The notes beneath the pieces were generated by a model. It searched no databases. It saw only the letters and a program-made list of their open reading frames with translations, and had not been told where the DNA came from. Positions 1,429 through 56,550 of a stretch of DNA of 56,550 nucleotides are shown piece by piece. Every line of letters begins with the position of its first letter. Within the stretch, counting starts at the first letter, position 1. Origin of the DNA: a virus (lineage: Duplodnaviria > Caudoviricetes). The stretch lies in IMG/VR virus record IMGVR_UViG_3300037493_003812, positions 1 to 56,550 of that record. One strand, given 5' to 3'. The position numbers were made by a program, and so were the translations under genes.

Positions 1429-1938
1429 TTATGAACTGAGTGAATTCATTGCGAGGGATCTGATGTATGCGAGGATGTTCTCTACGTGATGAAGGGCATC
1501 GCTTATTTTGTAGATATCATCTTGTTCGGGGGAATCATGGTCAGCGCTGAGATTATCTATGACATCGATTATTTCTGAGAGCAATGCGTCAGATTCATTG
1601 AGAGACGTGATGAAATACTCCATGTTTCCATTGTCTATTCCTTGGAGCGGAAGGATGCCTAGTCTTCTGAGTTTTTTGCCGGCTTTATTGATATTATCGG
1701 AGTCTGTGGTCCCTGGGCGGAAGTATTTGCTATCTCTGAGTACCATGAGCGCTTTGGCGGCATTAAAGGTTTCTGAGGAGAATTTCTCGAGTCCTTGTCT
1801 TAGGCCTGGCAGATGAACGGTCTCGCCGGTTGTCTCAATGGAGTTTGGGTCTATGATGCCCTCAGGGTTATCTACCATTGTTGCGATAACTTCTCTAATC
1901 AGAGTTCTTAGGTTTGTCAAATTTCTATTAACGGCCAT
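1429..1938 (-). CDS. Hypothetical protein, possibly virion-associated
   Basis: 169 aa, N-terminal LRTLIREVI; ATACTTA motif upstream rather than the early promoter. Confidence 0.6.
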   Translation of the reverse strand: MAVNRNLTNLRTLIREVIATMVDNPEGIIDPNSIETTGETVHLPGLRQGLEKFSSETFNAAKALMVLRDSKYFRPGTTDSDNINKAGKKLRRLGILPLQGIDNGNMEYFITSLNESDALLSEIIDVIDNLSADHDSPEQDDIYKISDALHHVENILAYIRSLAMNSLSS

Positions 1939-1964
1939 GTTATACCTCGACTGATAAGTATGGT

Positions 1965-2261
1965 TCAGCCGACTTGTTTACAGGGGTCGCTCGTGACTAA
2001 TTCCCAGCCTGAGGTAAGGTCAGCTGAGAGCATGATATCTCCATAGAGGATAATGTCTCTATCTTCGAGGGACACGCTTCCTCGCATGAATGAGTCAGTT
2101 CTGAGGTAGACTGCATATTCATCAGGATAGACGGTGACATAGTTTTGGGAGAGGTCATCTCCGTGGGCATTTACTTGCCAGCAATATGAGGCGGTCTGAG
2201 AGGAGCGTCTAATGAGTTGGCCGGCCATAAAAGGTGATGGTGGCTTCAAGATGGTGGTCAT
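1965..2261 (-). CDS. Small SH3/KOW-like family protein
   Basis: FMAGQLI ... ILYGD; ATGA coupling. Confidence 0.65.
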   Translation of the reverse strand: MTTILKPPSPFMAGQLIRRSSQTASYCWQVNAHGDDLSQNYVTVYPDEYAVYLRTDSFMRGSVSLEDRDIILYGDIMLSADLTSGWELVTSDPCKQVG

Positions 2262-2506
2262 AGGAGTTTGCACCAGTCAGGGGAGACTGAGACCATTACA
2301 TCATCGAAGAGGACGGCGAATAGAGCGGAGTCTGTTTTGATGACTATGCCGACGGCATTGGGTTGAATGAGTATCCGTTTAATTTTAGGGCGAGAGAGGC
2401 CATTTGACAGGTCCATGTCTGGGGTATAGAGCATGAAGTTATAGGGCATATCAAGGGTGTTAGTGATAAGGTCTCCGGCCTTGATTGATTTAGTGTGTTT
2501 ATTCAT
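2258..2506 (-). CDS. Small SH3/KOW-like family protein
   Basis: KAGDLI ... VLFDD. Confidence 0.65.
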   Translation of the reverse strand: MNKHTKSIKAGDLITNTLDMPYNFMLYTPDMDLSNGLSRPKIKRILIQPNAVGIVIKTDSALFAVLFDDVMVSVSPDWCKLL

Positions 2507-2757
2507 ATTGAATGAATCCAGAGAGCGGTGACGGCGAGCAACTGTTCATTGAACAGAACGATATGACAGGCCTCATTGTTAGGGAGCTTTGATATCCAGA
2601 GACAAATTGTATCCGCTGGGATACAGACGGTAGGTTGGTCGAGGTCGGTACCGTTTGGCTTGACGTTCCATCCCCAGCTATCGCTATCGCCTGGGTCTGG
2701 GTCATCGCTTTTAAGACGGACTAATTGGCCTGCGGAGAAGTTCTTAGGCTTTTTCAT
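2503..2757 (-). CDS. Small SH3/KOW-like family protein
   Basis: FSAGQLV ... VLFNEQ; start placed at MKKPKNF. Confidence 0.65.
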   Translation of the reverse strand: MKKPKNFSAGQLVRLKSDDPDPGDSDSWGWNVKPNGTDLDQPTVCIPADTICLWISKLPNNEACHIVLFNEQLLAVTALWIHSI

Positions 2758-3019
2758 TGAATTCCTCTTGGACGAGTTCGAAGACATTTCTGAATTTGGG
2801 GTGGATTTTCTGGAGTTCTCCATCTGGAGTGACGACGGTCCAGACACGATAGGACTTAGCGGCTGCTGGCGGGTTCTCGGACTTAATGATTAAGAATACG
2901 TCATTTTCGTTAAATTCGACGGTGCTAAAGAAGGCCCACCAAGGAATCTTTCTGCGTCGATGTTTCATATGTGGTTTAAGTCGGATAAGTTTCCCGACAC
3001 GCATAATTGGTTTGTTCAT
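2744..3019 (-). CDS. Small SH3/KOW-like family protein
   Basis: MRVGKLIRLK ... VVTPDG. Confidence 0.65.
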   Translation of the reverse strand: MNKPIMRVGKLIRLKPHMKHRRRKIPWWAFFSTVEFNENDVFLIIKSENPPAAAKSYRVWTVVTPDGELQKIHPKFRNVFELVQEEFNEKA

Positions 3020-22386: not shown

Positions 22387-23397
22387 TTACAGATGGGCAG
22401 CGATGAAGCAACCTCTGGCTACTGCATGCAACGGATCAGCGGCATGACGAACTTCCTTGATATCACAAGGGAACTCATTCTCTTCAAGCTTCTTAGCAAA
22501 AGTCTCGACAAAGCCCTTGGCCTGCGAAGTGCCTCCACCAACTACAATCGGTAGAGCATTCTTGAACTTTGGGAGGTCCTTATGATTAGTAAGAGCCGCC
22601 GCTAGCTGTTTAGTCGTATAATCAATCAATCGCTCATAGTAAGCTGAAACAGCCGCAAGAATTTGATTGTCATTCGGTTGACCAATGACAAACTCGCCTG
22701 ACTCCTTCTCAGATTGAACCACGCTATCCGTTTGGCCAGTGGCGACCGCTGACATTCTATCAATCCAGTCGCCGCTCTTTGTTGTAGAGAACGTCAGGAC
22801 TGGTTCGCCTGTAAGCATAACACAAACGTTAACCATTCCAGCTCCCCAAGAGAGAGCAACACCTGTATAGTCATCCTTCTCTAACTCAGAGTAGCAAAGT
22901 GCTTCTGCTTCGTTAATAGACTTAGGTTCATAGCCCAGTTCCGCCAGGACCTTCTTTACTACGTCCTCATGATAGCCAACGTCAAACTCTTCATCCTCTT
23001 GATCGATGGGCTGTGCGGGGATACAGAAGACAATTTTCTCACCAGGTTCAGCCGCTGGTGTAGTGACCTCTTTAAGAATATAGGTGAGGATTTTACGAGC
23101 ATCCTTTTCTTTACTGGAAACTACACCACGAAACATAGGACGCTTAACGCTATCATTACGTTCTACGGCTTTCTCGATGGCATCTTTACCGAGGATAATG
23201 AAAGAACCATCGGAGTCTTTAACGAAGGTCTTACCTGCGAGACCTTTTTCAATCATTTTGGCAGCGATTGGAGTGGCCGGCTTAATGATGTAAAATGCGT
23301 CTCTAAAATCCTTATATTGAACGGTGCCGTCATCCTGCTCACTGGCTAAGACCACGAAACTAGTTCCTACGTCTAGACCTTTTCCTAATTTAGTCAT
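22387..23397 (-). CDS. Actin-fold ATPase (MreB/ParM/FtsA-like)
   Basis: Phosphate-1 GLDVGTS, connect INEAEA, phosphate-2 SWGAG, adenosine VGGGTS motifs. Confidence 0.85.
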   Translation of the reverse strand: MTKLGKGLDVGTSFVVLASEQDDGTVQYKDFRDAFYIIKPATPIAAKMIEKGLAGKTFVKDSDGSFIILGKDAIEKAVERNDSVKRPMFRGVVSSKEKDARKILTYILKEVTTPAAEPGEKIVFCIPAQPIDQEDEEFDVGYHEDVVKKVLAELGYEPKSINEAEALCYSELEKDDYTGVALSWGAGMVNVCVMLTGEPVLTFSTTKSGDWIDRMSAVATGQTDSVVQSEKESGEFVIGQPNDNQILAAVSAYYERLIDYTTKQLAAALTNHKDLPKFKNALPIVVGGGTSQAKGFVETFAKKLEENEFPCDIKEVRHAADPLHAVARGCFIAAHL

Positions 23398-23428
23398 TGG
23401 TGTTTTCTTTCTCATTGATTACTTTCTG

Positions 23429-24566: not shown

Positions 24567-26381
24567 CTATTCCCTTGGACTCGTAATATTACCATTTTCA
24601 TCCACAAAACCAAATGCTCTAAGCGTATGCTCAAATGGCTTTCCTTCAATCGAAGCAACCTGCTTAAGCATTTCTCCCGCTATCTCCCTAATTTCCAGCT
24701 GAGCATGCTTCGAATACCTGAGATTAAGGAAATGAGCAAAACTTCTAAAATTAAACATAACATCAATCGTTAGCTGATTCCCATAGGGTAGATATAGTCG
24801 AGCACTTTCCTTCGCTCGCTTTCTGTCCATACCACTAGCCACTAACCGTCCTAGACATTCGTGATAAGCTTTTAGACTATTCTCCATATGCTCGACGTAT
24901 CTAGCAACCTCTACGTTGTTCCAGTCCTGTGGAACGTAATACTTGTCATCCTTAAGTTCCTTATATCGAGCACTATTATGAACGACAACCCCGTTTGCTA
25001 CAAAATTTTTCCATTTACCAGCTATTTCAATATCAAAAGTTTTTTCCTCTTTTAACTCTTCAATTGACACAATTTTAGAATAATTCGCAGACAGTTTTTT
25101 CCCAATTCTTTTTTTTCTAGGCTTCCAGCAAGGCTTGAATTCTTCACTCAATACTTTATCTGCGAAAGATTTTTCTATCTCTTCTGTTTTGTGTATAGAG
25201 TGATGACAATTTTCACAAACAGTTATTAAGTTGTTAAATTCATATGCCAAATTTTCATCGGCGCCGACAGGAACAATGTGATGGGCGTGTAATGTAGAAC
25301 TTCCATTACCACACTCTTGGCATGTCCAATTAAACTTTTCATGAACACGCCGGGCATTTCTAGTTGTCCAAACTCCTATCAAGGATCTCTCCTTTGTTAT
25401 TCCACCCCTCCAAAAATGTGATTTGGATCCGGAGCTTGCTTTCCCTTGTGCTCGGCGTATTTGTAAACTCTCTTCGCTTAAATTTAAGGTGTATCCTTTG
25501 ATATTTTTATTCCAAGGGATACCCTCCTTTTTAAAATCCTTATTTAAATCAAGCTTAAAAAGAGCTTTGTGTATGTACCCCCACTTCTTACAAAGTTCAT
25601 ATTTTATTCCAGACTTTAACGCAAATTCTTTCATTGTAAATTCGTGAGACTGTGCAAAGTATTCAGGAAACGTCCAAGGACGGGAAGGAACATGTGTTTT
25701 AATGCCGTTTGTGGCGACCTCGACACCTACCCGAAGTGTTTTATCGGAAATAGTTGACCACCCATTTCGTGTATATACCCTATGATCTTTTGAGCACTTT
25801 AACACTTTTCCATCTGATAGCGTTATTTTATAAACCAATTTTTGGCCAGAGCAAGTAATGTCCTTAACGTGCGAATATTCGAAAACATTTGTTTCTTCAT
25901 TTAAGACACGAATTTTCATTCGTTGTAATCTTTTTCTTTGATAATCAATCTCTGCCTTAGATGTTGAATTGTTGCGACCAGTATTCCATTTCTGGTATAA
26001 ATCTTCAATTTTAAAACGAAGCTTCGGAGTGGCCTGATCGTTGGTGTTAACGAATGTTATTTCGCTTGAACCATCCAAACATTCACTATTGATAGAGACC
26101 CCAATTCTATGTTTTAGCAAATGAATATGGGAATCCAAAGAGGTGGTGGCTAGAAAATGAAGGCTACTCTTCTCAAAGGGAGAGTGATGATTATTTTCAG
26201 CCAGCATCTTTAGAAGAGCTGGAATACGAGCTACTTTTTCTGGCGTAAGTTCTCTTGAAGTGGAGGTCCACGCAGAACACGCATGTTCACTATCGCCACC
26301 GTAGGTTCCAAGAATTTCGACAGTATTTTGATGTGCTAATTTAATTGCTGTAGTCATTGGTCTATTATAGAATGCCGGCAT
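24567..26381 (-). CDS. thyX: Flavin-dependent thymidylate synthase with intein
   Basis: HHSPFE, KHRIGVSINSE|SARY, KESARLYLP, NFRSFAHFLNLR..HAQLEIR. Confidence 0.92.
   Translation of the reverse strand: MPAFYNRPMTTAIKLAHQNTVEILGTYGGDSEHACSAWTSTSRELTPEKVARIPALLKMLAENNHHSPFEKSSLHFLATTSLDSHIHLLKHRIGVSINSECLDGSSEITFVNTNDQATPKLRFKIEDLYQKWNTGRNNSTSKAEIDYQRKRLQRMKIRVLNEETNVFEYSHVKDITCSGQKLVYKITLSDGKVLKCSKDHRVYTRNGWSTISDKTLRVGVEVATNGIKTHVPSRPWTFPEYFAQSHEFTMKEFALKSGIKYELCKKWGYIHKALFKLDLNKDFKKEGIPWNKNIKGYTLNLSEESLQIRRAQGKASSGSKSHFWRGGITKERSLIGVWTTRNARRVHEKFNWTCQECGNGSSTLHAHHIVPVGADENLAYEFNNLITVCENCHHSIHKTEEIEKSFADKVLSEEFKPCWKPRKKRIGKKLSANYSKIVSIEELKEEKTFDIEIAGKWKNFVANGVVVHNSARYKELKDDKYYVPQDWNNVEVARYVEHMENSLKAYHECLGRLVASGMDRKRAKESARLYLPYGNQLTIDVMFNFRSFAHFLNLRYSKHAQLEIREIAGEMLKQVASIEGKPFEHTLRAFGFVDENGNITSPRE
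24975..26081 (-). mobile_element. Intein (369 aa) carrying an HNH endonuclease
   Basis: CLDGSSEI start, CSKDHRV block B, CQECG..HAHH..NLITVCENCH, NFVANGVVVHN followed by Ser. Confidence 0.9.
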
Positions 26382-37991: not shown

Positions 37992-39197
37992 TTACGACCG
38001 CTTCGCCAGCGAGAGGATGGAGTCCAAGAAGGAAGCCGTCCACTCTCCAGAGACGCCCCGCTTCGCCTCGATATACCCAGCGATATCCGAACACTTGCCC
38101 GCATACTGCATCATCGCCGGATCGAACCAGATTCCAGATTGGTGTGCCGACCGAGCAAAAGTCTTCCGATGCGCCGCAGACCCCCACGGCTCAGACGTTG
38201 CCTCTGCTACCAGAGCCGACACTTCATCATACTTCACTCGATAATCCTTAAGCATTGCCCGAACGCCGCCTTGCATCTTCGTCGCAGACACCTTCATATC
38301 ATCCGACATTACCACGAACGCATCATCCAGCTTCTCACCAAGAATAAGCGTCATGACGTTCCGAGGAGACGCCACTGCATCCTTAAGCCGAGAATATGTC
38401 ATATATTGCGCAGACTTGATCTTCACACGGTTGAAGACGCCCGGCGAAACTTCCTGACAAGCCACGATTCCCTCAAACTGACGAGGATCACGGCCCTGAA
38501 CGAACTCCGTGATTTCTGCTACAGAACCGAGGCGATACGTCTCTATAGACTTCACGCCAAGGATAGAAGACGTTGCCGGCCAATATTCACGCCCCGTAAG
38601 CGTCTCACGCACACCGAGAAGAACGATATAGTCCGTCTTGTGCTGAACAACCACTTGGTTCGCTCCCGCACAAAGCTCGAAAACATACGTCATGGACCGA
38701 TCAAGCTTCTCCGACCAGAGTGCAAAATCACACGCCAGCGTCTTCTCAAAGAGATCACGGAACGTCATATCCCAGCCATTAAGCGGGAGATCTGCCTCGC
38801 AAACTGCCCGAGTCGCCACATGCCACGCAGACTGAATATCATCGAAATAGACGATGCAACAAGTTCCGTCATACTTGTTCTCAAGCACGGTATCATTTGC
38901 CATGAGATCGATCGAAGCTGCTGCTCCCATGCCGCAATTAAAAAACCTGCGGAAAGGCTTAGCGAGCACGACCGTCTCACCTACTGCGGCATCCACAGGA
39001 AGCGGCGAACCGTCAACCGTGCGCAATACAAGCCCTCGGCATTCTTGCGAAAGCTCATCGCTATCAACTGCTTCCAGTTGATCATAATTTAGCGACATTT
39101 TGTAATTTCGCTCAGACGCAATGCGGCACTTAACGCCGTGATCCCGATAGAGATCAGCGATTGAGTGCGTAAGCAGATATTCTTGGACAGGGAGCAT
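37992..39197 (-). CDS. RNA ligase, T4 Rnl1-like
   Basis: ECRGLV, PFRRFFN, KYDG (motif I), YVFEL, EGIV, RVKIK; promoter 39217-39245. Confidence 0.88.
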   Translation of the reverse strand: MLPVQEYLLTHSIADLYRDHGVKCRIASERNYKMSLNYDQLEAVDSDELSQECRGLVLRTVDGSPLPVDAAVGETVVLAKPFRRFFNCGMGAAASIDLMANDTVLENKYDGTCCIVYFDDIQSAWHVATRAVCEADLPLNGWDMTFRDLFEKTLACDFALWSEKLDRSMTYVFELCAGANQVVVQHKTDYIVLLGVRETLTGREYWPATSSILGVKSIETYRLGSVAEITEFVQGRDPRQFEGIVACQEVSPGVFNRVKIKSAQYMTYSRLKDAVASPRNVMTLILGEKLDDAFVVMSDDMKVSATKMQGGVRAMLKDYRVKYDEVSALVAEATSEPWGSAAHRKTFARSAHQSGIWFDPAMMQYAGKCSDIAGYIEAKRGVSGEWTASFLDSILSLAKRS

Positions 39198-39324
39198 AGC
39201 GTTTCTTTCTATATACATTATACCAGATTTTTGGTCAAATTTAAACCAATAATATGCTTTTGCACAAAAGAAAAAGCCCCAGTTTCCCAGGGCTTTTCAC
39301 GCATTAATTCTTTTGCCGGCTTAA

Positions 39325-39574: not shown

Positions 39575-39850
39575 TTATAGAGCCGGCATTTCTCCCGTAT
39601 AAACCTGCACTTCTGGTAAGAGGGTCCAGACGTAAAGCTTCTCACCATCCAGAAGAATGATATCGTATGGGTCGCCATATATCTGGCAACTACCTAAATA
39701 AAACATAACTTCGTTCGACCATATCACTCTATCGTTTATACCGGTAAGTCCGCCCCTTTTATCTAAATGATGGCCGACTTTTTGCTGAGTAGGCGTCGGC
39801 GGCTGATACGAAAATACTAGTAAATCGCCGGGCTTACAGCCTTCGCTCAC
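39575..39850 (-). CDS. Small SH3/KOW-like family protein
   Basis: KPGDLL ... ILLDGE. Confidence 0.65.
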   Translation of the reverse strand: MSEGCKPGDLLVFSYQPPTPTQQKVGHHLDKRGGLTGINDRVIWSNEVMFYLGSCQIYGDPYDIILLDGEKLYVWTLLPEVQVYTGEMPAL

Positions 39851-40896
39851 TTGCCAGTTCCATTCCGTAGAGCCGTGCTCGACATCTTATAGTGCTCCGC
39901 CGGATTATTGATCCGCTTACAAAGATCTAGCGGTGCGCCGGCAATATGGAACAATGTCTCCACCTGCCCATTAACCTCACGATCCGCCACAAGAAACTTC
40001 GTTCCAAGTGCTCGAAATTCATTCAATAGAGGCGTAATTTCCACTCCCCACTTAGGGTCCAGCATCCGGATAAGAGCGTCTACTCCAACAATAATCTTCG
40101 CACCAGGAAACTTTCTCGCCTTATCTAGATAAAGCGGGTCATCCTGCGTAAAGATTCTCGCATAACCATCCAGAAGCTTTGCACGCTCCACTAGTTCAAT
40201 AACGTTCAATGCCGGCTTATGAGGAGGATTAGTCGTGATATGAAAGATTCCTCGACTCGCTCTCGCCAACCACATATGTCCCTCATGCGGAGGATTGAAC
40301 GCTCCTGGAAACAGAACCAGTCCGTTGCCAGTCTTAGGCACTTCTCCTCGCTCCCCATTTTCAAGAAAATAAGGATGCTCAAAAAAGAGCTTAGTCGCCT
40401 TGTCCGTCGCATCAGTCATAACCAATGCTTCCGGCTCTGCCAATGCCGTCAGGGCCAACGCATCGCACTTGTCGCCATCCTGAATCCTCGCCGCCATACC
40501 GACACCCTTTACCAGGATTTCGCTATAAGCCTTTACGCCGTTCTTAGTTGCCACAGCAATAAAGACCCGATGGGCGCCACGATGCGCAACGGTGCTCGCC
40601 ACAGAAGCCGTAAGGCCCAACCCAACGGCCGCCGCTCCATTCAACACAAACGCTCTGCTATATGCTTCAAGCGCCAACGAGATTGCGGTATCTTCCGAAC
40701 AATACTTTGCCGGCTTAAACCCAAGAAACTTATCAGTTGCCTCAGGCTCATAAGGAAACTCTGCTCCAACAAGAACCGCACTGATTCCAGGCACCTGCCA
40801 AAGAATATTTTGAAGACCAGCACCCGCTCCACTTGCCACAATATAAATGCGGTTCTTAGCGGTAAGGAGCGTGTTCAGCTTTTCGCAGTTGTTCAT
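39847..40896 (-). CDS. CinA_C-like domain plus NMN/NaMN adenylyltransferase (NadD/NadM-like) fusion
   Basis: N-terminal SGAG..L..VPG.S..L...FPY; FPGAFNPPHEGH (HxGH), VGVD, MSSTALR. Confidence 0.8.
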   Translation of the reverse strand: MNNCEKLNTLLTAKNRIYIVASGAGAGLQNILWQVPGISAVLVGAEFPYEPEATDKFLGFKPAKYCSEDTAISLALEAYSRAFVLNGAAAVGLGLTASVASTVAHRGAHRVFIAVATKNGVKAYSEILVKGVGMAARIQDGDKCDALALTALAEPEALVMTDATDKATKLFFEHPYFLENGERGEVPKTGNGLVLFPGAFNPPHEGHMWLARASRGIFHITTNPPHKPALNVIELVERAKLLDGYARIFTQDDPLYLDKARKFPGAKIIVGVDALIRMLDPKWGVEITPLLNEFRALGTKFLVADREVNGQVETLFHIAGAPLDLCKRINNPAEHYKMSSTALRNGTGK

Positions 40897-40972
40897 CTTC
40901 GTTGCCTCTTTATACTTACAGTATACCAGGATTCTAGAATAATTTCAAGGGATTAAACTAAGTAAAAATCGT

Positions 40973-41725
40973 TTAAAATCGGGCACTTATGCGCTTCGCC
41001 ATGGCAATAAAGTCATCGTAAGATAGTTTCCTCTTCGCATAGTTGCAAGTAGAACAACAAGAGACACAGTTATCGGTTTGGTAAGCTAATGAACTGTCCT
41101 TCCTGTCTATGCCGTTATAACGAAATTCTCTTTCTACGGTGGTAAGACTTTTGATTTGCCTAATGTTAGAGTATTCTACACCGCAATAATGACAAGGCGC
41201 CTTGATTAGCACCTCAAACTCTTCCTGCGTAAGAAGGTAGTCCAGCTTAAGCTTCTTAGCATGTGCTCGATATTGGTTGCGGATTTCGTTTAATAGAGCT
41301 TGATTGTTTGGCAATGTAGTTTTTCTGGAATATATTAATCCAGTTTGACAACCGCAACTAGTTGTATAGCCGACCAAAAGAGAATGAGAAACTACGTTAT
41401 GTGTTTTCCCGCAATCGCAAAGACATTCCCACAGCGTCCCGTATCGGTGCTCCGATTTTCCAATAAGAAACTTAATAACAAGGAGTGAGCCAAAACGCTG
41501 TCCTGTTAAATCTTTTGTAGCTGGATGGCATATGCCTTTTCCGCAAGAGGTTGTTTCGCCGGCCATAAGACTAGATTTGTCAACTTCATATTGTTTTCCG
41601 CAATCACATTGAACTTTAACGCGCCGCTTTGGCAACGAGCAGTCAAGTGCTACTAGCTTCCCAAAACGTTTTCCGTCAATGTCAATGAACTTTGGATTAT
41701 CTCTTATTGAGGCAAATCTTCCCAT
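40973..41725 (-). CDS. Homing endonuclease (HNH-like with CDCG repeats)
   Basis: GKRFGKL..CDCG twice, GIDRKDS..NCVSCC..CN..K. Confidence 0.85.
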   Translation of the reverse strand: MGRFASIRDNPKFIDIDGKRFGKLVALDCSLPKRRVKVQCDCGKQYEVDKSSLMAGETTSCGKGICHPATKDLTGQRFGSLLVIKFLIGKSEHRYGTLWECLCDCGKTHNVVSHSLLVGYTTSCGCQTGLIYSRKTTLPNNQALLNEIRNQYRAHAKKLKLDYLLTQEEFEVLIKAPCHYCGVEYSNIRQIKSLTTVEREFRYNGIDRKDSSLAYQTDNCVSCCSTCNYAKRKLSYDDFIAMAKRISARF

Positions 41726-41748
41726 AGTTCATACAGTATAATAGAAAA

Positions 41749-41771
41749 CGGCGGGTATAAATACCCGCCGC
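41749..41771 (-). terminator. Intrinsic terminator
   Basis: GGCGGGTAT/ATACCCGCC. Confidence 0.7.
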
Positions 41772-41804
41772 CCTTAAAATTCAATCTTTATTTGGAGTCT
41801 GCGT

Positions 41805-43250
41805 TCAGTGCCCTGCCTTGGCTGCGTTAGCTCGAACTTCGTCCAGCGTATAGGTCTTCTTGATTTCGCCATTCTCAAAGACGACTTGGAGAAGATCGTT
41901 GGTAACCGGTCCGTTCACCGTGAGCACACGCCCCAGGTCCCCGCTGCGCAGACCTCGGACAAGAGCCTGATGGCCCTTCTTCGACCGCTTACCAGTATCA
42001 GTAATCGGGTCCTTCGATACGTCCCGCCACTCCCCATTCACAAGAGCCGAGGCGCACTTAAAAGCGAAGCGCATTGTGTCCCTGTTGCAGAGTTGCAGCA
42101 AGCCACCTCCCATACCAAATCCAATGCAGCTGGCCGAATAACCTGCTGCCATCACTGCCCGAAGAATCTTAGGAATCGACTCATCGTTAATTCCATCGCC
42201 CTGAATAAGACCGAAGTAAGCAGGGAGCACCTTGAACCCCTTAAGGTTCCGCTTCATCCCAATCTTACGGTCGATAATGTCAAGAATCTTGATAAGAACG
42301 GTCGCCGGGTCACCCGAGTCAGGACGAATAACCAGCTTACCGCCCGAGGAGCTCACAAGGTCCAGAAGCTCCTCGCACCAGATATTCTCTACGGCGTTGT
42401 AAATGTCATACGAATCCGAGACACAAGCCGCAATCTTCTGCATCCCCGCCGGTACCTCACGCTCCACAAGATACTTCTGCACGAAGTTTCTGTAAGCCTT
42501 TGCTTCGTTCTCACGGCCCCACATCGTGATCGTGCTATGTTCAGCCGCAGGAATCGAGAAAGCGCTCATTCGACCCTCGACACCATAATAGTGATTGGCT
42601 GCCCGAATGCCTTCCACAGTGTCCGAACCAAGGAAATTGACAAGGTGCGCCGCTCCACCGATACGAGCCGACTCCTGGCTCGACACGCCTCGTGCGCCAA
42701 AGTCGTGAAGCTTGAAAGCAATCTCGCCTGCCGGATCGTCCGACGACTTTTCAAGTGCTTCAAGAATCGACTGCTTACAGAAATAGCTGATCGTACAAAC
42801 TGTAGTGGCGTACCAAACTTGGACTAGCATCGTTTCAAGATAGCTCACGCACCAAAAGACTTCCGGGTCCGGGACGGTCAATTCGATATCAAAGAGAACA
42901 TTCGACACCGGCACGACAGTTCCCTCAGGGACCGCCCGAATACGGACGGGGAACTTACCATCGTACTTATTGACGAGACACTCCCAGCCCTGCCGATTGA
43001 ACGGCTCGCCATGTGCCTCAAAGAAAGCGGCCGCCTCTTCCACGTGAGCCTGCGTGACAGGCTGCGAGAGGTACTGCTGGAGGTAATACTGGAGACCGAA
43101 GAAAACGGTCGAATGATACCGACCACCACGACTCTCAAAATACGAATACATATTCGTAACGTCGGGCGGATACTGGACCCAGTGCGAAGCCTTATAGCTG
43201 TCCGTGGCGGTAATGGGATTATATGCGAGGGGAGCGATGGTCTTAGTCAT
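41805..43250 (-). CDS. nadV: Nicotinamide phosphoribosyltransferase (NAMPT)
   Basis: TDSYKASH, LHDFGARG, PAAEHS, SDSYD, VIRPDSG, QGDG, FGMGGGLLQ. Confidence 0.95.
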   Translation of the reverse strand: MTKTIAPLAYNPITATDSYKASHWVQYPPDVTNMYSYFESRGGRYHSTVFFGLQYYLQQYLSQPVTQAHVEEAAAFFEAHGEPFNRQGWECLVNKYDGKFPVRIRAVPEGTVVPVSNVLFDIELTVPDPEVFWCVSYLETMLVQVWYATTVCTISYFCKQSILEALEKSSDDPAGEIAFKLHDFGARGVSSQESARIGGAAHLVNFLGSDTVEGIRAANHYYGVEGRMSAFSIPAAEHSTITMWGRENEAKAYRNFVQKYLVEREVPAGMQKIAACVSDSYDIYNAVENIWCEELLDLVSSSGGKLVIRPDSGDPATVLIKILDIIDRKIGMKRNLKGFKVLPAYFGLIQGDGINDESIPKILRAVMAAGYSASCIGFGMGGGLLQLCNRDTMRFAFKCASALVNGEWRDVSKDPITDTGKRSKKGHQALVRGLRSGDLGRVLTVNGPVTNDLLQVVFENGEIKKTYTLDEVRANAAKAGH

Positions 43251-49051: not shown

Positions 49052-49216
49052 ATGTTCTGGTCTGTTCTTTCGGAGAGAGAATTCGACGGGCGTTTCGTTT
49101 CGCCCGTCTTGATATACTCAGTATAACAAAAAAAAGCGTTCTTTTAAACCAATTAAATTTTATTTTTTGCCCTTATTTTATAAGGGGAAAACGTGTGTCC
49201 TGGCTTACAAAAACGT

Positions 49217-53294: not shown

Positions 53295-53551
53295 TTAGAC
53301 CTCGGTACAGGTTTGAAATACTTTTTAAGTGCTACACCTAGTCTATCATCCACTAGATATACTCCCCACTCCAGGAGAGGTTGATGATTTTTATAATCAC
53401 GAATATATACTACAATAGAGTCGGACTCCACTATAAATTCTTCGATGGAACAATCGCCTGCTGAATTTAAATACCAGAATCGATTGTCAACATTACGGAC
53501 ACCCTCCCGAAAACAATATAATTGTCCCGGCAAAAACTTGATCTGGCTCAC
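53291..53551 (-). CDS. Small SH3/KOW-like family protein
   Basis: FLPGQLY ... WGVYLVDD. Confidence 0.65.
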   Translation of the reverse strand: MSQIKFLPGQLYCFREGVRNVDNRFWYLNSAGDCSIEEFIVESDSIVVYIRDYKNHQPLLEWGVYLVDDRLGVALKKYFKPVPRSK

Positions 53552-53817
53552 TTGACTCTCCTAAGTGTCCGACAGTCCGCTCTCACAATCTGCTCATTGA
53601 ACATCACAAGCAAATAGTATTCCTCTTCCTCCTCAATCAAATCATCTACCACCAACCCAATATCCAAAGGTTCAACCCTTACAATACTGTTCGATGTAAT
53701 GTGAATCCCCTCAGTATCGTGCCAGCTTTCTTCCGTACAAAAGTTATGATTGCGCAGATTGCTCGCCAAGCGAACTAACGTGCCAGTCTTCATTGTATGC
53801 TTGCTTGACATATCCAT
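53548..53817 (-). CDS. Small SH3/KOW-like family protein
   Basis: MKTGTLV ... VMFNEQ; promoter upstream. Confidence 0.65.
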   Translation of the reverse strand: MDMSSKHTMKTGTLVRLASNLRNHNFCTEESWHDTEGIHITSNSIVRVEPLDIGLVVDDLIEEEEEYYLLVMFNEQIVRADCRTLRRVK

Positions 53818-53907
53818 ACGTCCAGTATATCATACAATTCTTAGATTTTAAAGTAATAAAAAAGCCGGCTAACTATTTGATATCACAAAGAAATTCTCGT
53901 CGTTACT

Positions 53908-53966
53908 CTGGCACTCATTCTACGGTCAAGGCAGATTAGGGATTGAACCTAATAAATGAGCCGGAC
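53908..53966 (-). ncRNA. tRNA-like module (T-arm plus loop-closed stem), candidate ncRNA
   Basis: TTAGG-TTCAATC-CCTAA T-arm, TCTGC/GTAGA hairpin, enclosed by CTCATT/AATGAG. Confidence 0.4.
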
Positions 53967-54082
53967 ATCTAAACCTGACTGATGCAATATCGTGGCCACG
54001 TAATTACACTCGTCGCTATCACTCATACCCAAGCGCTTGGATAAGCAATAAACAAGAACTTCTTTCTAATGTCAAATCAAAC

Positions 54083-54219
54083 GTTATTTGCTTTGTTCTG
54101 TGGATATGAACACACGCCGTTTCGAATGGGCCTTCCATTGTTAGCATCGATTCTAACACATCCGTATCCAGACACGGGCCAACCGTTAGCTTCCTTACCC
54201 ATAGAACAAAACAAATAAC
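54083..54219 (-). ncRNA. Structured ncRNA candidate with 21-bp closing stem
   Basis: GTTATTTGTTTTGTTCTATGG pairs with CCACAGAACAAAGCAAATAAC; internal hairpins; starts right after tRNA-Asn. Confidence 0.55.
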
Positions 54220-54223
54220 AAAG

Positions 54224-54295
54224 CTCCAAGACTAGGGATCGGACCTAGGACTTATCGGTTAACAGCCGAGCGTTCTACCACTGAACTATCTTGGA
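54224..54295 (-). tRNA. tRNA-Asn(GTT)
   Basis: Cloverleaf TCCAAGA/TCTTGGA, anticodon loop CTGTTAA. Confidence 0.92.
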
Positions 54296-54303
54296 ATATA
54301 CAA

Positions 54304-55146
54304 CTACATCTTACTGTAAGATCGAATCCATTTTCTAATGGCATTATCACTCACACCGTATTTTTTACCGACAGACACATAACTAGTCGTCTTCAACTCA
54401 TTCATCAATACTTCTAACGAAGGTCGTTCGACTTTTCTATTTCGTCTCGCCTGACACGGCGCACACCGCTTGGCTCCAATTACTATTTCTGTTTGACATT
54501 CTAAACAGAAACAGTTTTTTCTTTCCGGCTTAATTGGTTTTTCATATTCAACAATAGGTAAAGCCAACTTCTCTAATACAAGATTTACGCAAGCCATAAC
54601 ATCTTCACGAACGGCCTTTGCGGGTATTCTTACCACTTCCCAACCGTGTCCAACAGCAACAGCATCCCGCCGGGCGTCAATCTTTTTGACTTTATCTTGT
54701 CTGTGTGTATCACCGTCGATTTCAACATCTAAACGACACTCTGGCCAAGCAAAGTCAAAACTATACATACCGAAAGCGTATTCAGTTTCCCAGCCCACTA
54801 CACCGTTTTCTTTCAAAGCTTTTTCAAAGGCTTGCTCAGGATAAGAGCGCTTGCTAGAATGATACAGCCGATACGGTATTTTGCTCGGATTTGCTTCATA
54901 ATATCTAATTTGAGATTCGGATATCTTTCGTCTTGTTTCCTCGCTTGGAGCAGGTCGTTTATGATTTAACTGATGCAGCCTCTGCGCTTCACTCGGAGTC
55001 CTAAATGAAATTTCACCTCGACTCTTTGCTTTATACAAAGCAGCAACACACACGCCGTATTTAACACACAAATCTTTTTGACTCATGCCAGAGTCATATT
55101 CCGCTTGCAATAACTTCCAATCGTATCGTTTATGATATTTACTCAT
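54304..55146 (-). CDS. DUF559/Vsr-like homing endonuclease within the tRNA cluster
   Basis: N-terminal HTH, NUMOD3-like motif, YSFDFAW..VEIDGDTH..D..RD, Zn finger, C-terminal HTH. Confidence 0.82.
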   Translation of the reverse strand: MSKYHKRYDWKLLQAEYDSGMSQKDLCVKYGVCVAALYKAKSRGEISFRTPSEAQRLHQLNHKRPAPSEETRRKISESQIRYYEANPSKIPYRLYHSSKRSYPEQAFEKALKENGVVGWETEYAFGMYSFDFAWPECRLDVEIDGDTHRQDKVKKIDARRDAVAVGHGWEVVRIPAKAVREDVMACVNLVLEKLALPIVEYEKPIKPERKNCFCLECQTEIVIGAKRCAPCQARRNRKVERPSLEVLMNELKTTSYVSVGKKYGVSDNAIRKWIRSYSKM

Positions 55147-55212
55147 ACAATTAAGTATAGCACTAGACTCATAAATTTTATACTATTTTCGTGTTCAAAG
55201 TGCTTTTATTTG

Positions 55213-55290
55213 TAGGGCCGGCGGGAGTCGAACCCACATTGCTTTCGCTCGGATTAAGAATCCGCTACATAGCCGCTCTGTCACGACCCT
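55213..55290 (-). tRNA. tRNA with CTT (Lys) anticodon and extended variable arm
   Basis: AGGGTCG/CGGCCCT acceptor, loop TTCTTAA, 11-nt variable region with GC-GAAA-GC, GTTCGACT T-loop. Confidence 0.85.
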
Positions 55291-55308
55291 AAATCTTCAA
55301 CTACTTTG

Positions 55309-55381
55309 TGGAACCAGAGGGGAACGATCCCTCGACTGTCGCCTTAAAAGGGCGCTACTCTACCAACTGAGTTATGGTTCC
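55309..55381 (-). tRNA. tRNA-Lys(TTT)
   Basis: GGAACCA/TGGTTCC, loop CTTTTAA. Confidence 0.92.
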
Positions 55382-55447
55382 ATTTACTTACTACTTCTAC
55401 AGTCTATCACACTTCACAAACAATTTATACTGATTAATTATTTTTCT

Positions 55448-55523
55448 TGGTGACCCCAACGGGGTACGATCCCGTGTACCCGCCGTGAAAGGGCGGTATC
55501 CTTAACCACTAGATGATAGGGCC
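55448..55523 (-). tRNA. tRNA-Glu(TTC)
   Basis: GGCCCTA/TGGGGTC, loop CTTTCAC, encoded CCA. Confidence 0.93.
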
Positions 55524-55539
55524 ATCGCAAAGCCAATGC

Positions 55540-55713
55540 CTTGCATTAAGATAAGGCGTTATAGAAATGAGTCATAATGAAAGACACGAAACCGTAATGG
55601 GTTGGCCTTCAAATGATGCTCGGCAATCATTTCTAATAACACCGGTGATGAGCATACGTATAGCGGAACACAGGTTACCTATGCACGCACGCCCCTTGCG
55701 GGACTCTTAATAT
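55540..55713 (-). ncRNA. Multi-branched structured ncRNA candidate (~170 nt) between tRNAs
   Basis: ATTAAGA/TCTTAAT closing stem, GTCCC-GCAA-GGGGC hairpin, GGTGTTATTAGAAATGA/TCATTTCTATAACGCC long stem. Confidence 0.55.
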
Positions 55714-55727
55714 GTTCTCACTCTCAG

Positions 55728-55816
55728 TCCACCTATGGGGTGTCGATCCCCATCCGTTCGCCGATCTGGCGATTAAAGATTATAAGTCTTCCCGCACTGC
55801 CGAGTGCTTTAGGTGG
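55728..55816 (-). tRNA. tRNA-Ile(TAT) with long variable arm
   Basis: CCACCTA/TAGGTGG, loop CTTATAA, V-arm TCGCC-AGATC-GGCGA, T-arm TGGGG-ATCGACA-CCCCA. Confidence 0.82.
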
Positions 55817-55848
55817 TAATATATTAATTAGTAGTAGACTTGAAATAG

Positions 55849-55916
55849 AGTCGAAACGATTTAGAGGGTACCATCTTCGCCGAGCATACCCAGCCAAGCT
55901 CTTCATCGCCTCGACT
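55849..55916 (-). ncRNA. Small promoter-driven hairpin RNA / structured leader of the tRNA operon
   Basis: AGTCGAGGCGAT/ATCGTTTCGACT stem whose 5' end is at the predicted TSS of promoter 55922-55950. Confidence 0.5.
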
Positions 55917-56009
55917 TACTCAGTATACCAGAACCTTACCCGAATTTAAACCCTTTTAAGAAAGATTTTTATTTTATTTTGCCGGCCTTAATAACCAGCT
56001 GAAATTTAG

Positions 56010-56083
56010 AAGTCAAAGGACCGGTGCACAGAGGCAACACAACGGTTAAGAGAGAAACCCTCGGTGTCGTGTCTCTTTGACTT
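56010..56083 (-). ncRNA. Small promoter-driven structured RNA
   Basis: AAGTCAAAG/CTTTGACTT closing stem starting at the predicted TSS of promoter 56090-56118; no ORF. Confidence 0.5.
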
Positions 56084-56141
56084 ACTTTCAGTATAACAGA
56101 GCCGGCTCTCTTTTTAAACCAATTAAAAGAAAATATATTTG

Positions 56142-56550
56142 TCAGCCGCATTTGCTGTAAGAACAATTTCTGCAAAGCATGCAGCCTTCTTGATACACCA
56201 GGTCTGGTGCGCCACAAGTAGGACACTTTTTATCAGCACTAACCTTAGTGCCATCCTTGATGTAAGGTTTAAGCACTCTGGATAGCGCCTTGGAGAATGA
56301 AAACAAATCATCCTCAACCTCAGAGCCCTTCTGTATTTGTTCAACAACAAATTGAACCGGCGTTCCGTGTCTAAGAGATAAAGATGTAACTCTCGTAAAT
56401 GCTGAATGAACAGCATTCTCAAATAGACTAGTAATATCCTTAATCACCGCTTCATCTTCCGGTCCCTTTTCAAAATCATAATGAAGGTCATAGCGAGCAA
56501 TAGGATTTGAAGGTCCATTATGTTTTAAGATTTTGCCGGACTTCACACGC
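56142..56550 (-). CDS. nrdJ: C-terminal (TSCPD plus Zn-ribbon) part of class II ribonucleotide reductase, 5' end outside window
   Basis: TRVTSLSLRHG...SRVL...CPTCG..YQEGC..CRNCSYSKCG. Confidence 0.8.
   Translation of the reverse strand, partial: RVKSGKILKHNGPSNPIARYDLHYDFEKGPEDEAVIKDITSLFENAVHSAFTRVTSLSLRHGTPVQFVVEQIQKGSEVEDDLFSFSKALSRVLKPYIKDGTKVSADKKCPTCGAPDLVYQEGCMLCRNCSYSKCG

What the first reader, a model, noticed from the sequence alone, without database searches (positions are those of the whole stretch)
55849..56118. Two ~70-nt RNAs, each starting at the TSS of its own early promoter
Seen: promoters at 55922-55950 and 56090-56118 are followed not by ATG but by sequences whose first 9-12 nt pair with their last 9-12 nt (55849-55916, 56010-56083), both starting (A)AGTC. 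With the three other structured elements, the tRNA cluster looks like a bank of at least five unexplained RNAs. Inference: early small RNAs acting as decoys, antitoxin mimics or guides, expressed like the protein cassettes.
Basis: partly seen in the sequence, partly recalled or inferred. Interest (0 to 1): 0.75.

Follow-up and report, generated by a model that had tools for sequence, protein, structure and literature searches.

The report
Two promoter-anchored small phage RNAs
At the head of a phage tRNA gene cluster sit two short non-coding units, each with its own promoter and each folding so that its first and last bases pair, which probably yield small stable RNAs of unknown role like those long known in phage T4.

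Summary
The window is a fragment of a large uncultured freshwater phage, and everything here is on the minus strand. It carries 27 copies of one promoter type (TTTAAA, 14 nt, TGnTATAMT). In 15 of them an ATG lies exactly 6 nt after the -10 box, which places the transcription start at the 7th base. P1 and P2 belong to this family. Their predicted starts fall on the first or second base of a closing helix: element A (56083-56010) has 9 bp plus 3, and element B (55916-55849) has 12 bp. The other 25 promoters reach 8 bp at most. Anchored helices of at least 9 and at least 12 bp occur at 5.1% and 0.36% of background positions. B is a convincing strand-specific structure (z -4.4). A is weaker (z -2.1). 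Neither is a tRNA, matches Rfam, is followed by a predicted terminator, or carries a conserved ORF. Both persist in close relatives, where the module downstream of B is swapped. My best reading is two small RNA genes released by processing of the tRNA precursor and protected by the end-to-end helix, analogous to T4 RNAC/RNAD (0.45). A cis-acting leader role is nearly as likely (0.3). Function, expression and covariation are untested. A Y-RNA reading was tested and its defining features were not met. Interest is moderate.

The parts
56090..56118 (-). Promoter P1: -35-like TTTAAA, 14 nt, TGT, -10 TATACT. The 7th base after the -10 is A56083.
   Evidence: Conserved in L052 apart from 2 spacer changes.
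56010..56083 (-). Element A, 74 nt, non-coding. Closing helix of 9 bp, a bulged A, then 3 bp. The inner fold is weak.
   Evidence: -23.9 kcal/mol, z -2.1; anchored 9 bp; helix probability 0.8 in the 267-nt read-through. L052 differs at 2 of 74 positions.
55951..56009 (-). 59-nt spacer, 69% A+T, with no terminator. Likely single-stranded and a candidate endonuclease entry site.
55922..55950 (-). Promoter P2: TTTAAA, 14 nt, TGG, TATACT. The 6th and 7th bases after the -10 are A55916 and G55915.
   Evidence: Identical in L052.
55849..55916 (-). Element B, 68 nt, non-coding. 12-bp closing helix, a 2x2 GA/AA loop, a 4+3-bp helix, and a 6-bp hairpin with a UAUG loop. The ATG at 55906 is buried in the closing helix.
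   Evidence: -31.1 kcal/mol, z -4.4, plus strand -18.7; anchored 12 bp, background 0.36%; pair probabilities 0.95-1.0. L052 copy has 48 of 50 cells paired.
55817..55848 (-). 32-nt spacer, 81% A+T, between B and the next tRNA-like gene. Variable in relatives: 85 nt in L052, deletions of 1, 2, 1 and 21 letters in X12.
55727..55816 (-). Context: first tRNA-like gene of the operon (90 nt, long extra arm, anticodon loop CUUAUAA). Its 5' end would give an RNase P cut that frees B plus its trailer.
   Evidence: The L052 counterpart scores 37.6 bits against Rfam tRNA-Sec. The RNase P step is inferred.

Best explanation
A and B are two small non-coding RNA genes at the head of the phage's minus-strand tRNA operon.

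Each is transcribed by host RNA polymerase from its own strong extended -10 promoter. Because the transcript begins at the first base of a 12-bp helix formed with its own last bases, the 5'-triphosphate end is never single-stranded.

Transcription runs on, since no terminator follows. P1 reads through P2 and B, and both promoters read into the tRNAs. Cuts in the A+T-rich spacers, and the RNase P cut at the 5' end of the next tRNA-like gene, would free A and B. 3' exonucleases would then trim back to the helix. That leaves ~70-nt RNAs clamped at both ends, which should accumulate as stable species in the way T4 RNAC and RNAD do.

Shown here: the promoters' family membership, the start-site calibration, the anchored helices, the absence of a conserved ORF, and persistence in close relatives. 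Inferred: transcription itself, the processing steps, and stability. The trans-acting role is unknown. My guess is binding or titration of a host or phage RNA-binding factor.
For: 1. P1 and P2 are 2 of 27 promoters of one family. Leaderless genes calibrate the start: 15 of 27 have an ATG 6 nt after the -10.

2. Anchored helices are 9 and 12 bp for P1 and P2, against at most 8 bp for the other 25 promoters. Background rates are 5.1% and 0.36%.

3. B has z -4.4. G-U pairs make it specific to the minus strand. A covariance model of B scores 98.7 bits on the minus strand and 20.3 on the plus strand.

4. Both domains persist when the whole 267-nt P1 read-through is folded.

5. They look like genes rather than a required leader. 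P1 plus A is a complete unit with no tRNA before the next promoter. In the same phage's other tRNA cluster (G003), a promoter of this family is followed about 24 nt after its -10 by tRNA-Leu, with no clamp structure.

6. They behave as a module in relatives.
- L052 keeps A and B at 97.3% and 91.2% identity. It then diverges from B's 3' arm onward, with an 85-nt spacer in place of 32 nt and a different UAU tRNA-like gene.
- Run X7 keeps 55851-56127 with 1 difference and replaces 55723-55850 by 452 other letters.
- Run X12 has a contig covering 54302-56550 with 206 other letters and 72 gap letters (about 9% substitutions), and no listed indel inside A or B.

7. B in L052 keeps the same fold (-29.2 kcal/mol). 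3 of the 5 changes in paired positions keep pairing: G-U to A-U, U-A to U-G, G-U to G-C.

8. Not coding.
- The 57-codon frame in B has no homologue.
- That frame is cut to 22 codons in L052.
- 5 of the 6 codons that differ change the amino acid (read).
- The ATG is paired in the helix.
- A has no ATG within 80 nt.

9. Precedent. T4 carries two small stable RNAs of unknown role in its tRNA region (PMC3014915 and PMC9697503, passages read; annotation). 29 small 5'UTR-derived ncRNA candidates were reported in six Pseudomonas phages (PMC10914365, passages read).
Against: - No transcript data. The single RNA run laid (X20) had contigs only in the four bins spanning 55364-55731, none over A or B.
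- No terminator is predicted behind A or B, so discrete 3' ends rest entirely on inferred processing.
- There are no compensatory double changes: 0 of 25 pairs in B.
- In A, both L052 substitutions break predicted inner pairs.
- A's overall fold is weak (z -2.1) and equally stable on the plus strand.
- 2 of the 5 changes in B's paired positions in L052 break pairs, including the outermost pair.
- The RNR-A-B block is about 97% identical to L052 throughout, including synonymous sites of the RNR (ribonucleotide reductase) gene. Conservation therefore says little about selection.
- No homologue was found beyond these close relatives.
- A and B are not detectably related to each other: A scores 7.2 bits, E about 1, on B's model.
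Confidence: 0.45

Rival explanations
1. Cis-acting leaders of a tandem-promoter tRNA operon. P1 and P2 are two strong promoters stacked to drive the tRNAs, as in rRNA operons. A and B are only the 5' leader domains. Their start-anchored helices protect the precursor's 5' end, keep the nascent RNA off the template, or help the polymerase read through an untranslated operon (a put- or nut-like role). They have no role once cut off.
For: - No terminator follows A or B, and both promoters face the tRNAs.
- The helices start exactly at the predicted +1, which is what a 5'-end protector needs.
- The elements are lineage-specific and A and B are unrelated in sequence, as expected if only the helix matters.
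- A's inner part is poorly structured, and the 2 substitutions in L052 break its predicted inner pairs.
Against: - The same phage's other tRNA cluster has a promoter followed about 24 nt after its -10 by tRNA-Leu, with no such structure.
- P1 plus A is a self-contained unit ahead of a second full promoter.
- B's 44-nt interior is itself strongly structured, more than a protector needs.
- pre-tRNA 5' leaders are removed by RNase P in any case (established knowledge), so a protected leader gives the tRNAs little.
Confidence: 0.3
2. Relics or chance. P1 and P2 are former protein-cassette promoters whose genes were lost when tRNA and endonuclease modules moved in. The pairings, above all A's 9 bp, are fortuitous.
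For: - A's first 25 nt are purine-rich, like the short leaders of several protein cassettes.
- B carries ATGAAGAGC, close to the cassettes' frequent ATGAAGACG start.
- A 9-bp anchored helix occurs at 5.1% of positions.
- The cluster is a mosaic with swapped modules.
Against: - B's helix has a background rate of 0.36% and its fold has z -4.4.
- The two non-coding promoters rank 1st and 2nd of 27 for anchored helices.
- Both units are kept intact in L052, X7 and X12 while neighbouring modules vary.
Confidence: 0.12
3. Y-RNA-like partners of a Ro60 (TROVE) protein. A and B would be short Y RNAs whose end-to-end stem docks a phage or host Ro60 ring. A complete 231-kb relative carries such RNAs inside its tRNA region.
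For: - G001 (RNR 69% identical) encodes a 527-aa TROVE protein. Just upstream it has an array of six to seven end-paired RNAs bearing CCGAA... / ...ACUUG. One of them matches Rfam YrlA at 46.4 bits, E 3.6e-8, below the gathering score of 69.
- That RNA's closing stem begins GUCAAAG, the same 7 bases as A's.
- A also contains an inner helix ACAC[C]GA / UUGUGU with a bulged C. From recall, this resembles the Ro-binding helix GGUC[C]GA / UUGACU of animal Y RNAs.
Against: - No TROVE match in the window or in G003, together 87 kb of an estimated 235 kb.
- No YrlA or Y_RNA match at E up to 10 in 53500-56550.
- The closing stems of A and B lack the CCGA / ACUUG motif that all the G001 units carry (and the sequence).
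- The L052 substitution U45 to C breaks a pair of A's inner helix.
- The stem sequences of the G001 units differ from one another, so one shared 7-mer may be coincidence.
Confidence: 0.06
4. B is the start of a micro-protein cassette (MKSLAGYARRRWYPLNRFDS...), translated from the ATG at 55906 behind a 9-10-nt leader.
For: - An ATG lies 15 nt after the -10, followed by AAG A.., like the common MKT starts. Other cassettes have 19-26-nt leaders.
Against: - The frame is 57 codons here, running through a tRNA-like gene, and 22 codons in L052.
- 5 of the 6 codons that differ between the two change the amino acid.
- No homologue among proteins of 31-100 aa.
- The ATG is base-paired in a 12-bp helix.
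- GAGG lies only 2 nt before the ATG.
Confidence: 0.04

Closest known systems
Phage T4 RNAC and RNAD (species 1 and 2 RNAs) of the tRNA gene region
   Same: - Small non-coding RNAs encoded inside a virulent phage's tRNA cluster, next to a homing-endonuclease gene.
- Biological role still unknown (PMC3014915 and PMC9697503, passages read; annotation).
- RNAC also pairs its two ends.
   Different: - The T4 RNAs are 139 and 119 nt and lie at the distal end of the cluster. No promoter is annotated directly before them in the record; only misc_RNA features are listed.
- RNAC carries a tRNA-type T arm.
- A and B are 74 and 68 nt and lie at the head of the cluster, each behind its own promoter.
- A and B have no tRNA features and no sequence similarity to the T4 region.
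5'UTR-derived small RNAs of virulent Pseudomonas phages (ONT-cappable-seq candidates)
   Same: Short promoter-proximal phage RNAs with a defined start, conserved only within a genus and of unknown function (PMC10914365, section 20, passages read).
   Different: - Those are made by premature termination ahead of protein genes.
- A and B have no predicted terminator and precede tRNAs.
Bacterial and phage Y RNAs (YrlA type) with Ro60
   Same: - An end-to-end closing stem.
- They occur within a tRNA region in the relative G001.
   Different: - A and B have no tRNA-like domain.
- They lack the CCGA/ACUUG motif at the stem.
- No TROVE gene is in reach.
- No covariance-model match.
5'-terminal stem-loop stabilisers (ompA-type) and HK022 put RNAs
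   Same: Structures placed at or just after the start of a transcript that act on the same RNA or on the transcribing polymerase (recalled knowledge, not from a call).
   Different: - Those are single or double local hairpins.
- Here the 5' end pairs with a segment about 60 nt downstream, enclosing a separate interior.
- No put-like family matched in Rfam.

Membership tests
tRNA / tRNA-like gene | Cloverleaf with a 7-bp acceptor stem, D, anticodon and T arms | tested here: not met
   ARAGORN at default, at relaxed thresholds (-ps, -ps80) and in mitochondrial mode calls nothing at A or B. Rfam tRNA finds nothing there at E up to 10.
Any Rfam 15 family | Covariance-model score at the gathering threshold | tested here: not met
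   Only 4 tRNAs pass in the window. At E up to 10 the sole hit in A or B is a 21-nt C/D-box fragment at 11.5 bits. The L052 copies give only such weak hits.
Y RNA (YrlA / Ro60 partner) | Closing stem formed by the 5' and 3' ends | tested here: met
   9+3 bp in A and 12 bp in B.
Y RNA (YrlA / Ro60 partner) | Conserved Ro-binding helix at the closing stem (CCGA with a bulged C opposite ACUUG, as in all G001 units) | tested here: not met
   A motif scan finds 6 units in L074 (a 7th read by eye) and none in the window's tRNA cluster. A has a similar helix only internally, and L052 breaks one of its pairs.
Y RNA (YrlA / Ro60 partner) | Encoded next to a TROVE/Ro60 gene | tested here: not met
   PF05731 gives no match in G000 or G003. 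It matches in G001. About 150 kb of this phage is not available, so absence from the genome is not shown.
T4 RNAC/RNAD-type stable RNAs | Small non-coding RNA gene inside a phage tRNA cluster | tested here: met
   A and B lie directly upstream of 5 tRNA or tRNA-like genes on the same strand.
T4 RNAC/RNAD-type stable RNAs | Sequence or structural homology to rnaC or rnaD | tested here: not met
   Short-word BLAST of A and B against the T4 region gives only chance matches of 8-13 nt, none meaningful in rnaC or rnaD. RNAC's T arm has no counterpart.
T4 RNAC/RNAD-type stable RNAs | Accumulates as a discrete stable RNA during infection | not testable with these tools
   No raw-read RNA data. The one metatranscriptome laid holds only contigs, and none lies over A or B.
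Terminator-ended independent sRNA | Intrinsic terminator at the 3' end | tested here: not met
   The terminator scan finds no minus-strand site between 56170 and 55057.
Leaderless protein cassette of this phage | ATG at the 7th base after the -10, with a conserved ORF | tested here: not met
   P1 has no ATG within 80 nt. P2 has an ATG at 15 nt, a frame not conserved in L052, and no homologue.

The most novel reading that the evidence does not exclude
A and B are a new class of phage 'clamp' RNAs. They would be primary transcripts whose triphosphate 5' end is locked in a 12-bp helix and made early in quantity. They would bind and neutralise a host RNA-surveillance or defence factor. One candidate is a Ro60/exonuclease complex, since a relative of this phage carries Ro60 and a Y-RNA array in its tRNA region. 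Another is a nuclease that senses tRNA-like helices. On this reading they are RNA-based counter-defence genes that travel with the phage's replacement tRNAs.
Probability: 0.1. Interest if true: 0.75.

Novelty: new variant of a known kind. Interest (0 to 1): 0.4.

Why it matters
Phage tRNA clusters are now read as counter-defence loci that supply replacement tRNAs for those cut by host nucleases. The small non-tRNA RNAs that ride in them, such as T4 RNAC and RNAD, have had no function for fifty years.

This locus offers a cleaner case. It has two short RNAs, each with its own strong promoter. The start is calibrated by the phage's own leaderless genes, and the fold clamps both ends. If they are stable and act in trans, they would be easy to express and pull down, and could reveal a partner. 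If they are only leaders, they show how a phage protects or drives an untranslated operon. As it stands this is an uncharacterised, lineage-restricted pair of candidate RNAs with no expression data.

Tried and rejected
Homologues
- Phage database, blastn and megablast: no match.
- IMG/VR exact 20-mer and 26-mer from B and A: 0 hits each.
- IMG/VR pattern 'promoter + AGTC': 41 stretches. None has the upstream promoter context or an anchored helix over 8 bp, so all are chance.
- Neighbours of the RNR (ribonucleotide reductase) gene: 12 viral loci and 21 metagenome loci. Only L052 carries the cluster. The 2 genome-collection loci are too distant, at 41% identity.
- Two other neighbouring proteins used as bait: nothing useful.
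- DNA search of five related records: nothing below E 0.01.

Other negative or unusable results
- Paralogues: B's covariance model finds no further copy in the window, G003 or L052.
- Targets: no complementarity beyond 12-13 nt in 87 kb of the phage.
- Hammerhead, C/D-box k-turn and anticodon-loop mimicry were considered by eye and dropped because the core motifs do not fit.
- The palindrome AGAGCCGGCTCT in P1's spacer is not kept in L052.
- G001 does not use this promoter type (8 weak hits in 231 kb), so it could not serve as a second test of start-anchored helices.
- The TROVE protein used as bait found only itself.
- RNA run X20: no contig over A or B. This is not evidence of absence.
- The table of X12 substitutions was cut (191 rows not shown), so its roughly 9% divergence could not be used for covariation.
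- Supplementary files of papers were not consulted. They may list phage ncRNAs, for example Table S7 of PMC10914365.

Full report
**What the window is.** The window is a 56,550-base IMG/VR virus record, estimated 24% complete. That implies a phage of roughly 235 kb. A second record, G003 (30,944 bases), overlaps its right end and continues the same or a near-identical phage. Runs holding near-identical sequence are freshwater and sediment metagenomes: 20 runs from 11 studies. Nearly all genes, and everything discussed here, lie on the minus strand.

**The promoters.** An extended -10 motif preceded by TTTAAA recurs on the minus strand. With a simple -35 filter there are 27 copies, with consensus TAATTgGTTTAAAtTc..TGgTATAcT.
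- In 15 of the 27 an ATG begins exactly 6 nt after the -10. One more has it at 7 nt and one at 8 nt.
- The remaining genes have leaders of 19-68 nt.
- A leaderless mRNA must begin at its AUG (established knowledge). These 15 genes therefore place +1 at the 7th base after the -10.
- P1 (-10 ends at 56090) and P2 (-10 ends at 55922) are ordinary members of the family. The independent consensus scan also found them.
- That they are 'early' is an inference from their sigma-70-like form.

**The two elements.** From P1, the 7th base is A56083. The RNA would begin AAGUCAAAG, which pairs with CUUUGACUU ending at 56010. After one bulged A, GAC pairs with GUC. From P2, the 6th and 7th bases are A55916 and G55915. 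AGUCGAGGCGAU pairs with AUCGUUUCGACU ending at 55849, 12 bp including two G-U pairs.
- B folds at -31.1 kcal/mol, z -4.4, with 0 of 200 shuffles as good.
- B's reverse complement reaches only -18.7 kcal/mol, so the structure belongs to the minus-strand RNA.
- A folds at -23.9 kcal/mol, z -2.1 (6 of 200), and is equally stable on both strands.

**Is it more than chance?** Plain 9-bp helices are common: 228 in the window. Helices of 12 bp or more are rare: 8. The sharper test anchors the helix within 1 nt of the predicted start. P1 then gives 9 bp and P2 gives 12 bp, while the other 25 promoters give 4-8 bp. Among 8022 background positions, 5.1% reach 9 bp and 0.36% reach 12 bp. B is clearly non-random. 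A on its own is borderline. The two promoters without a gene being the top two of 27 is hard to ascribe to chance. Both domains survive when the whole 267-nt P1 read-through is folded: helix probability is 0.8 for A and 0.95-1.0 for B.

**What they are not.**
- *tRNA:* ARAGORN in four settings and Rfam find nothing at A or B.
- *Any Rfam family:* none at E up to 10.
- *Terminator-ended sRNAs:* no terminator is predicted.
- *Proteins:* A has no ATG within 80 nt. B has an ATG 15 nt after the -10, but several things argue against translation.
  - The ATG is paired within the closing helix.
  - The frame runs 57 codons through the next tRNA-like gene.
  - In relative L052 it stops after 22 codons.
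  - 5 of the 6 differing codons change the amino acid.
  - No homologue exists among proteins of 31-100 aa.
- *Copies of each other:* A scores 7.2 bits (E about 1) on B's covariance model, and no other copy exists in the 93.6 kb searched.

**Relatives.** No homologue turned up in the phage database, in IMG/VR by exact words, or by a promoter-plus-AGTC pattern. RNR-linked loci in more distant phages lack the tRNA cluster altogether. Three close relatives do carry the elements.
- *L052 (metagenome contig, RNR 99% identical in protein).* It keeps P1, A, P2 and B. A has 2 changes in 74 positions and B has 6 in 68, while the RNR gene is 97.5% identical. From B's 3' arm onward the sequences diverge. 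L052 has an 85-nt spacer in place of 32 nt and a different UAU tRNA-like gene. Homology resumes at about 55730.
- *X7.* A contig keeps 55851-56127 with one difference and replaces 55723-55850 by 452 other letters.
- *X12.* A contig covers 54302-56550 with 206 other letters and 72 gap letters (about 9% substitutions). It has deletions in the B-to-tRNA spacer and no listed indel in A or B. Its substitution table was truncated.

A and B thus behave as a stable module beside a swappable one. The evidence for selection on structure is thin. In B, 3 of the 5 changes in paired positions keep pairing by wobble, 2 break it, and none is compensatory. The L052 fold is retained at -29.2 kcal/mol. In A both changes break predicted inner pairs and leave the closing helix untouched.

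**How it most likely works.** Host polymerase starts at the base of the helix. The 5' triphosphate end is sequestered as soon as the 3' arm is made. Transcription continues into the tRNAs. The spacers are 69% and 81% A+T and predicted unpaired, so they are plausible endonuclease sites. RNase P must cut at the 5' end of the next tRNA-like gene. Exonucleases would stop at the helix. That would leave ~70-nt RNAs closed at both ends. Everything after 'starts at the base of the helix' is inference from general knowledge of bacterial RNA decay.

Three observations favour discrete RNA genes over mere leaders. First, P1 plus A is a complete unit ahead of another full promoter. Second, the same phage's other tRNA cluster has a promoter followed about 24 nt after its -10 by tRNA-Leu, with no clamp. 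Third, B's boundary is a module boundary in two relatives. I put discrete small RNAs at 0.45, cis-acting leaders at 0.3, relics or chance at 0.12, Y-RNA-like at 0.06 and a micro-protein at 0.04.

**The Y-RNA lead.** The complete 231-kb relative G001 encodes a TROVE/Ro60 protein. Directly upstream is an array of six to seven end-paired RNAs, each with CCGAA near the 5' stem and ACUUG near the 3' stem. One matches Rfam YrlA at 46.4 bits, E 3.6e-8, below the gathering score of 69. That unit's stem begins GUCAAAG, as A's does.

I tested the defining features. The closing stem is met. The motif at the stem is not met. No TROVE gene is found in the 87 kb at hand. There is no covariance-model hit. 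A's inner helix ACAC[C]GA / UUGUGU resembles the Ro-binding helix recalled from animal Y RNAs, but one of its pairs is broken in L052. I keep this as the most novel reading not excluded, at low probability.

**Comparison with the known.** The nearest precedent is T4 RNAC/RNAD: small stable RNAs in the tRNA region, function unknown (PMC3014915 section 29 and PMC9697503 section 16, passages read; PMC2330249 figure legend, passage read; annotation). The T4 RNAs are longer and lie at the far end of the cluster. RNAC has a tRNA T arm. There is no sequence similarity. Promoter-proximal small RNAs are also reported in numbers for Pseudomonas phages (PMC10914365 section 20, passages read), but those arise by premature termination. 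A and B are therefore a new, lineage-restricted variant of a known kind: small phage RNAs of unknown function tied to a tRNA cluster. They are distinguished by their own promoters and start-anchored clamps.

**Verdict.** Interest is 0.4.

Noticed in passing
window, minus strand, 27 sites from 5060 to 56090: One promoter family (TAATTgGTTTAAAtTc..TGgTATAcT). In 15 of the 27 sites an ATG lies exactly 6 nt after the -10, so much of this phage's early-type gene set appears to be leaderless. Many of these genes start ATGAAGACG.
   Followed up: partly
window 55727-55816 (-); L052 2909-2999: A 90-nt tRNA-like gene with a long extra arm, a 5-bp D stem with a 4-nt loop, and anticodon loop CUUAUAA (UAU). 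ARAGORN calls it tRNA-Ile. Rfam tRNA does not match the window copy. The L052 copy scores 37.6 bits against tRNA-Sec, below the gathering score of 47. Between the two copies the anticodon stem changes GAAGA/UCUUU to GACGG/CCGUC with the loop kept, i.e. compensatory changes. From recall, it resembles the 'allo-tRNAs' described from metagenomes.
   Followed up: partly
L052 3476-3654, within the counterpart of window tRNA-Asn 54223-54295: In the relative, tRNA-Asn is split after position 34, in the anticodon loop, by about 187 nt that match the Rfam group I intron model (45.2 bits, E 6.9e-10, gathering score 50). The window copy is uninterrupted.
   Followed up: partly
window 54082-54220 (-) and about 55554-55643 (-): Two further end-paired elements lie in the cluster. 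D is 139 nt with an 18+6-bp closing stem (z -4.9). Its interior is called tRNA-Ser-like only at ARAGORN's 80% threshold, and L052 has an insertion in it. C is about 90 nt with a 17-bp closing stem, between the UAU tRNA-like gene and tRNA-Glu. A 171-nt metatranscriptome contig (depth 2, from a relative) covers 55552-55710.
   Followed up: partly
G001 (L074 564-1380, TROVE ORF 1429-3012): A complete 231-kb relative carries a Ro60/TROVE gene preceded by six to seven tandem Y-RNA-like genes. Each has CCGAA... and ...ACUUG beside an end-to-end stem, and several have T-arm-like GGUUCGAAUCC segments. Only one reaches an Rfam YrlA score (46.4 bits).
   Followed up: partly
window, 51 sites, e.g. 56101-56106 and 55981-55986 flanking A: The palindrome GCCGGC occurs 51 times against 9.7 +/- 2.9 expected. 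It is often seen just before promoters as AGCCGGCTTTTT. Its meaning is unknown.
   Followed up: no
window 54304-55146 (-): A 280-aa homing-endonuclease-like gene (HNH-type PHROG matches) with its own leaderless promoter sits between tRNA-Lys(CUU) and tRNA-Asn. L052 shows no similarity to window 55386-54305, which holds this gene and both window tRNA-Lys genes. It carries a different tRNA-Lys(UUU) there.
   Followed up: partly
window 22387-23415, 24567-26381, 37992-39218, 39847-43250 (-): The phage encodes an actin-like protein (Volactin, E 4e-62). It also encodes a ThyX interrupted by an intein with an HNH domain, and an Rnl1-type RNA ligase. A NAMPT lies next to a CinA/cytidylyltransferase-like protein, suggesting NAD salvage.
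   Followed up: no
window 49110-49128 and G003 about 20310: Two promoters of the family are followed by ATCAAGACG instead of ATGAAGACG at the predicted start. At 49120 a perfect 8-bp hairpin (GACGGGCG...CGCCCGTC) follows, ahead of a 68-nt leader.
   Followed up: no
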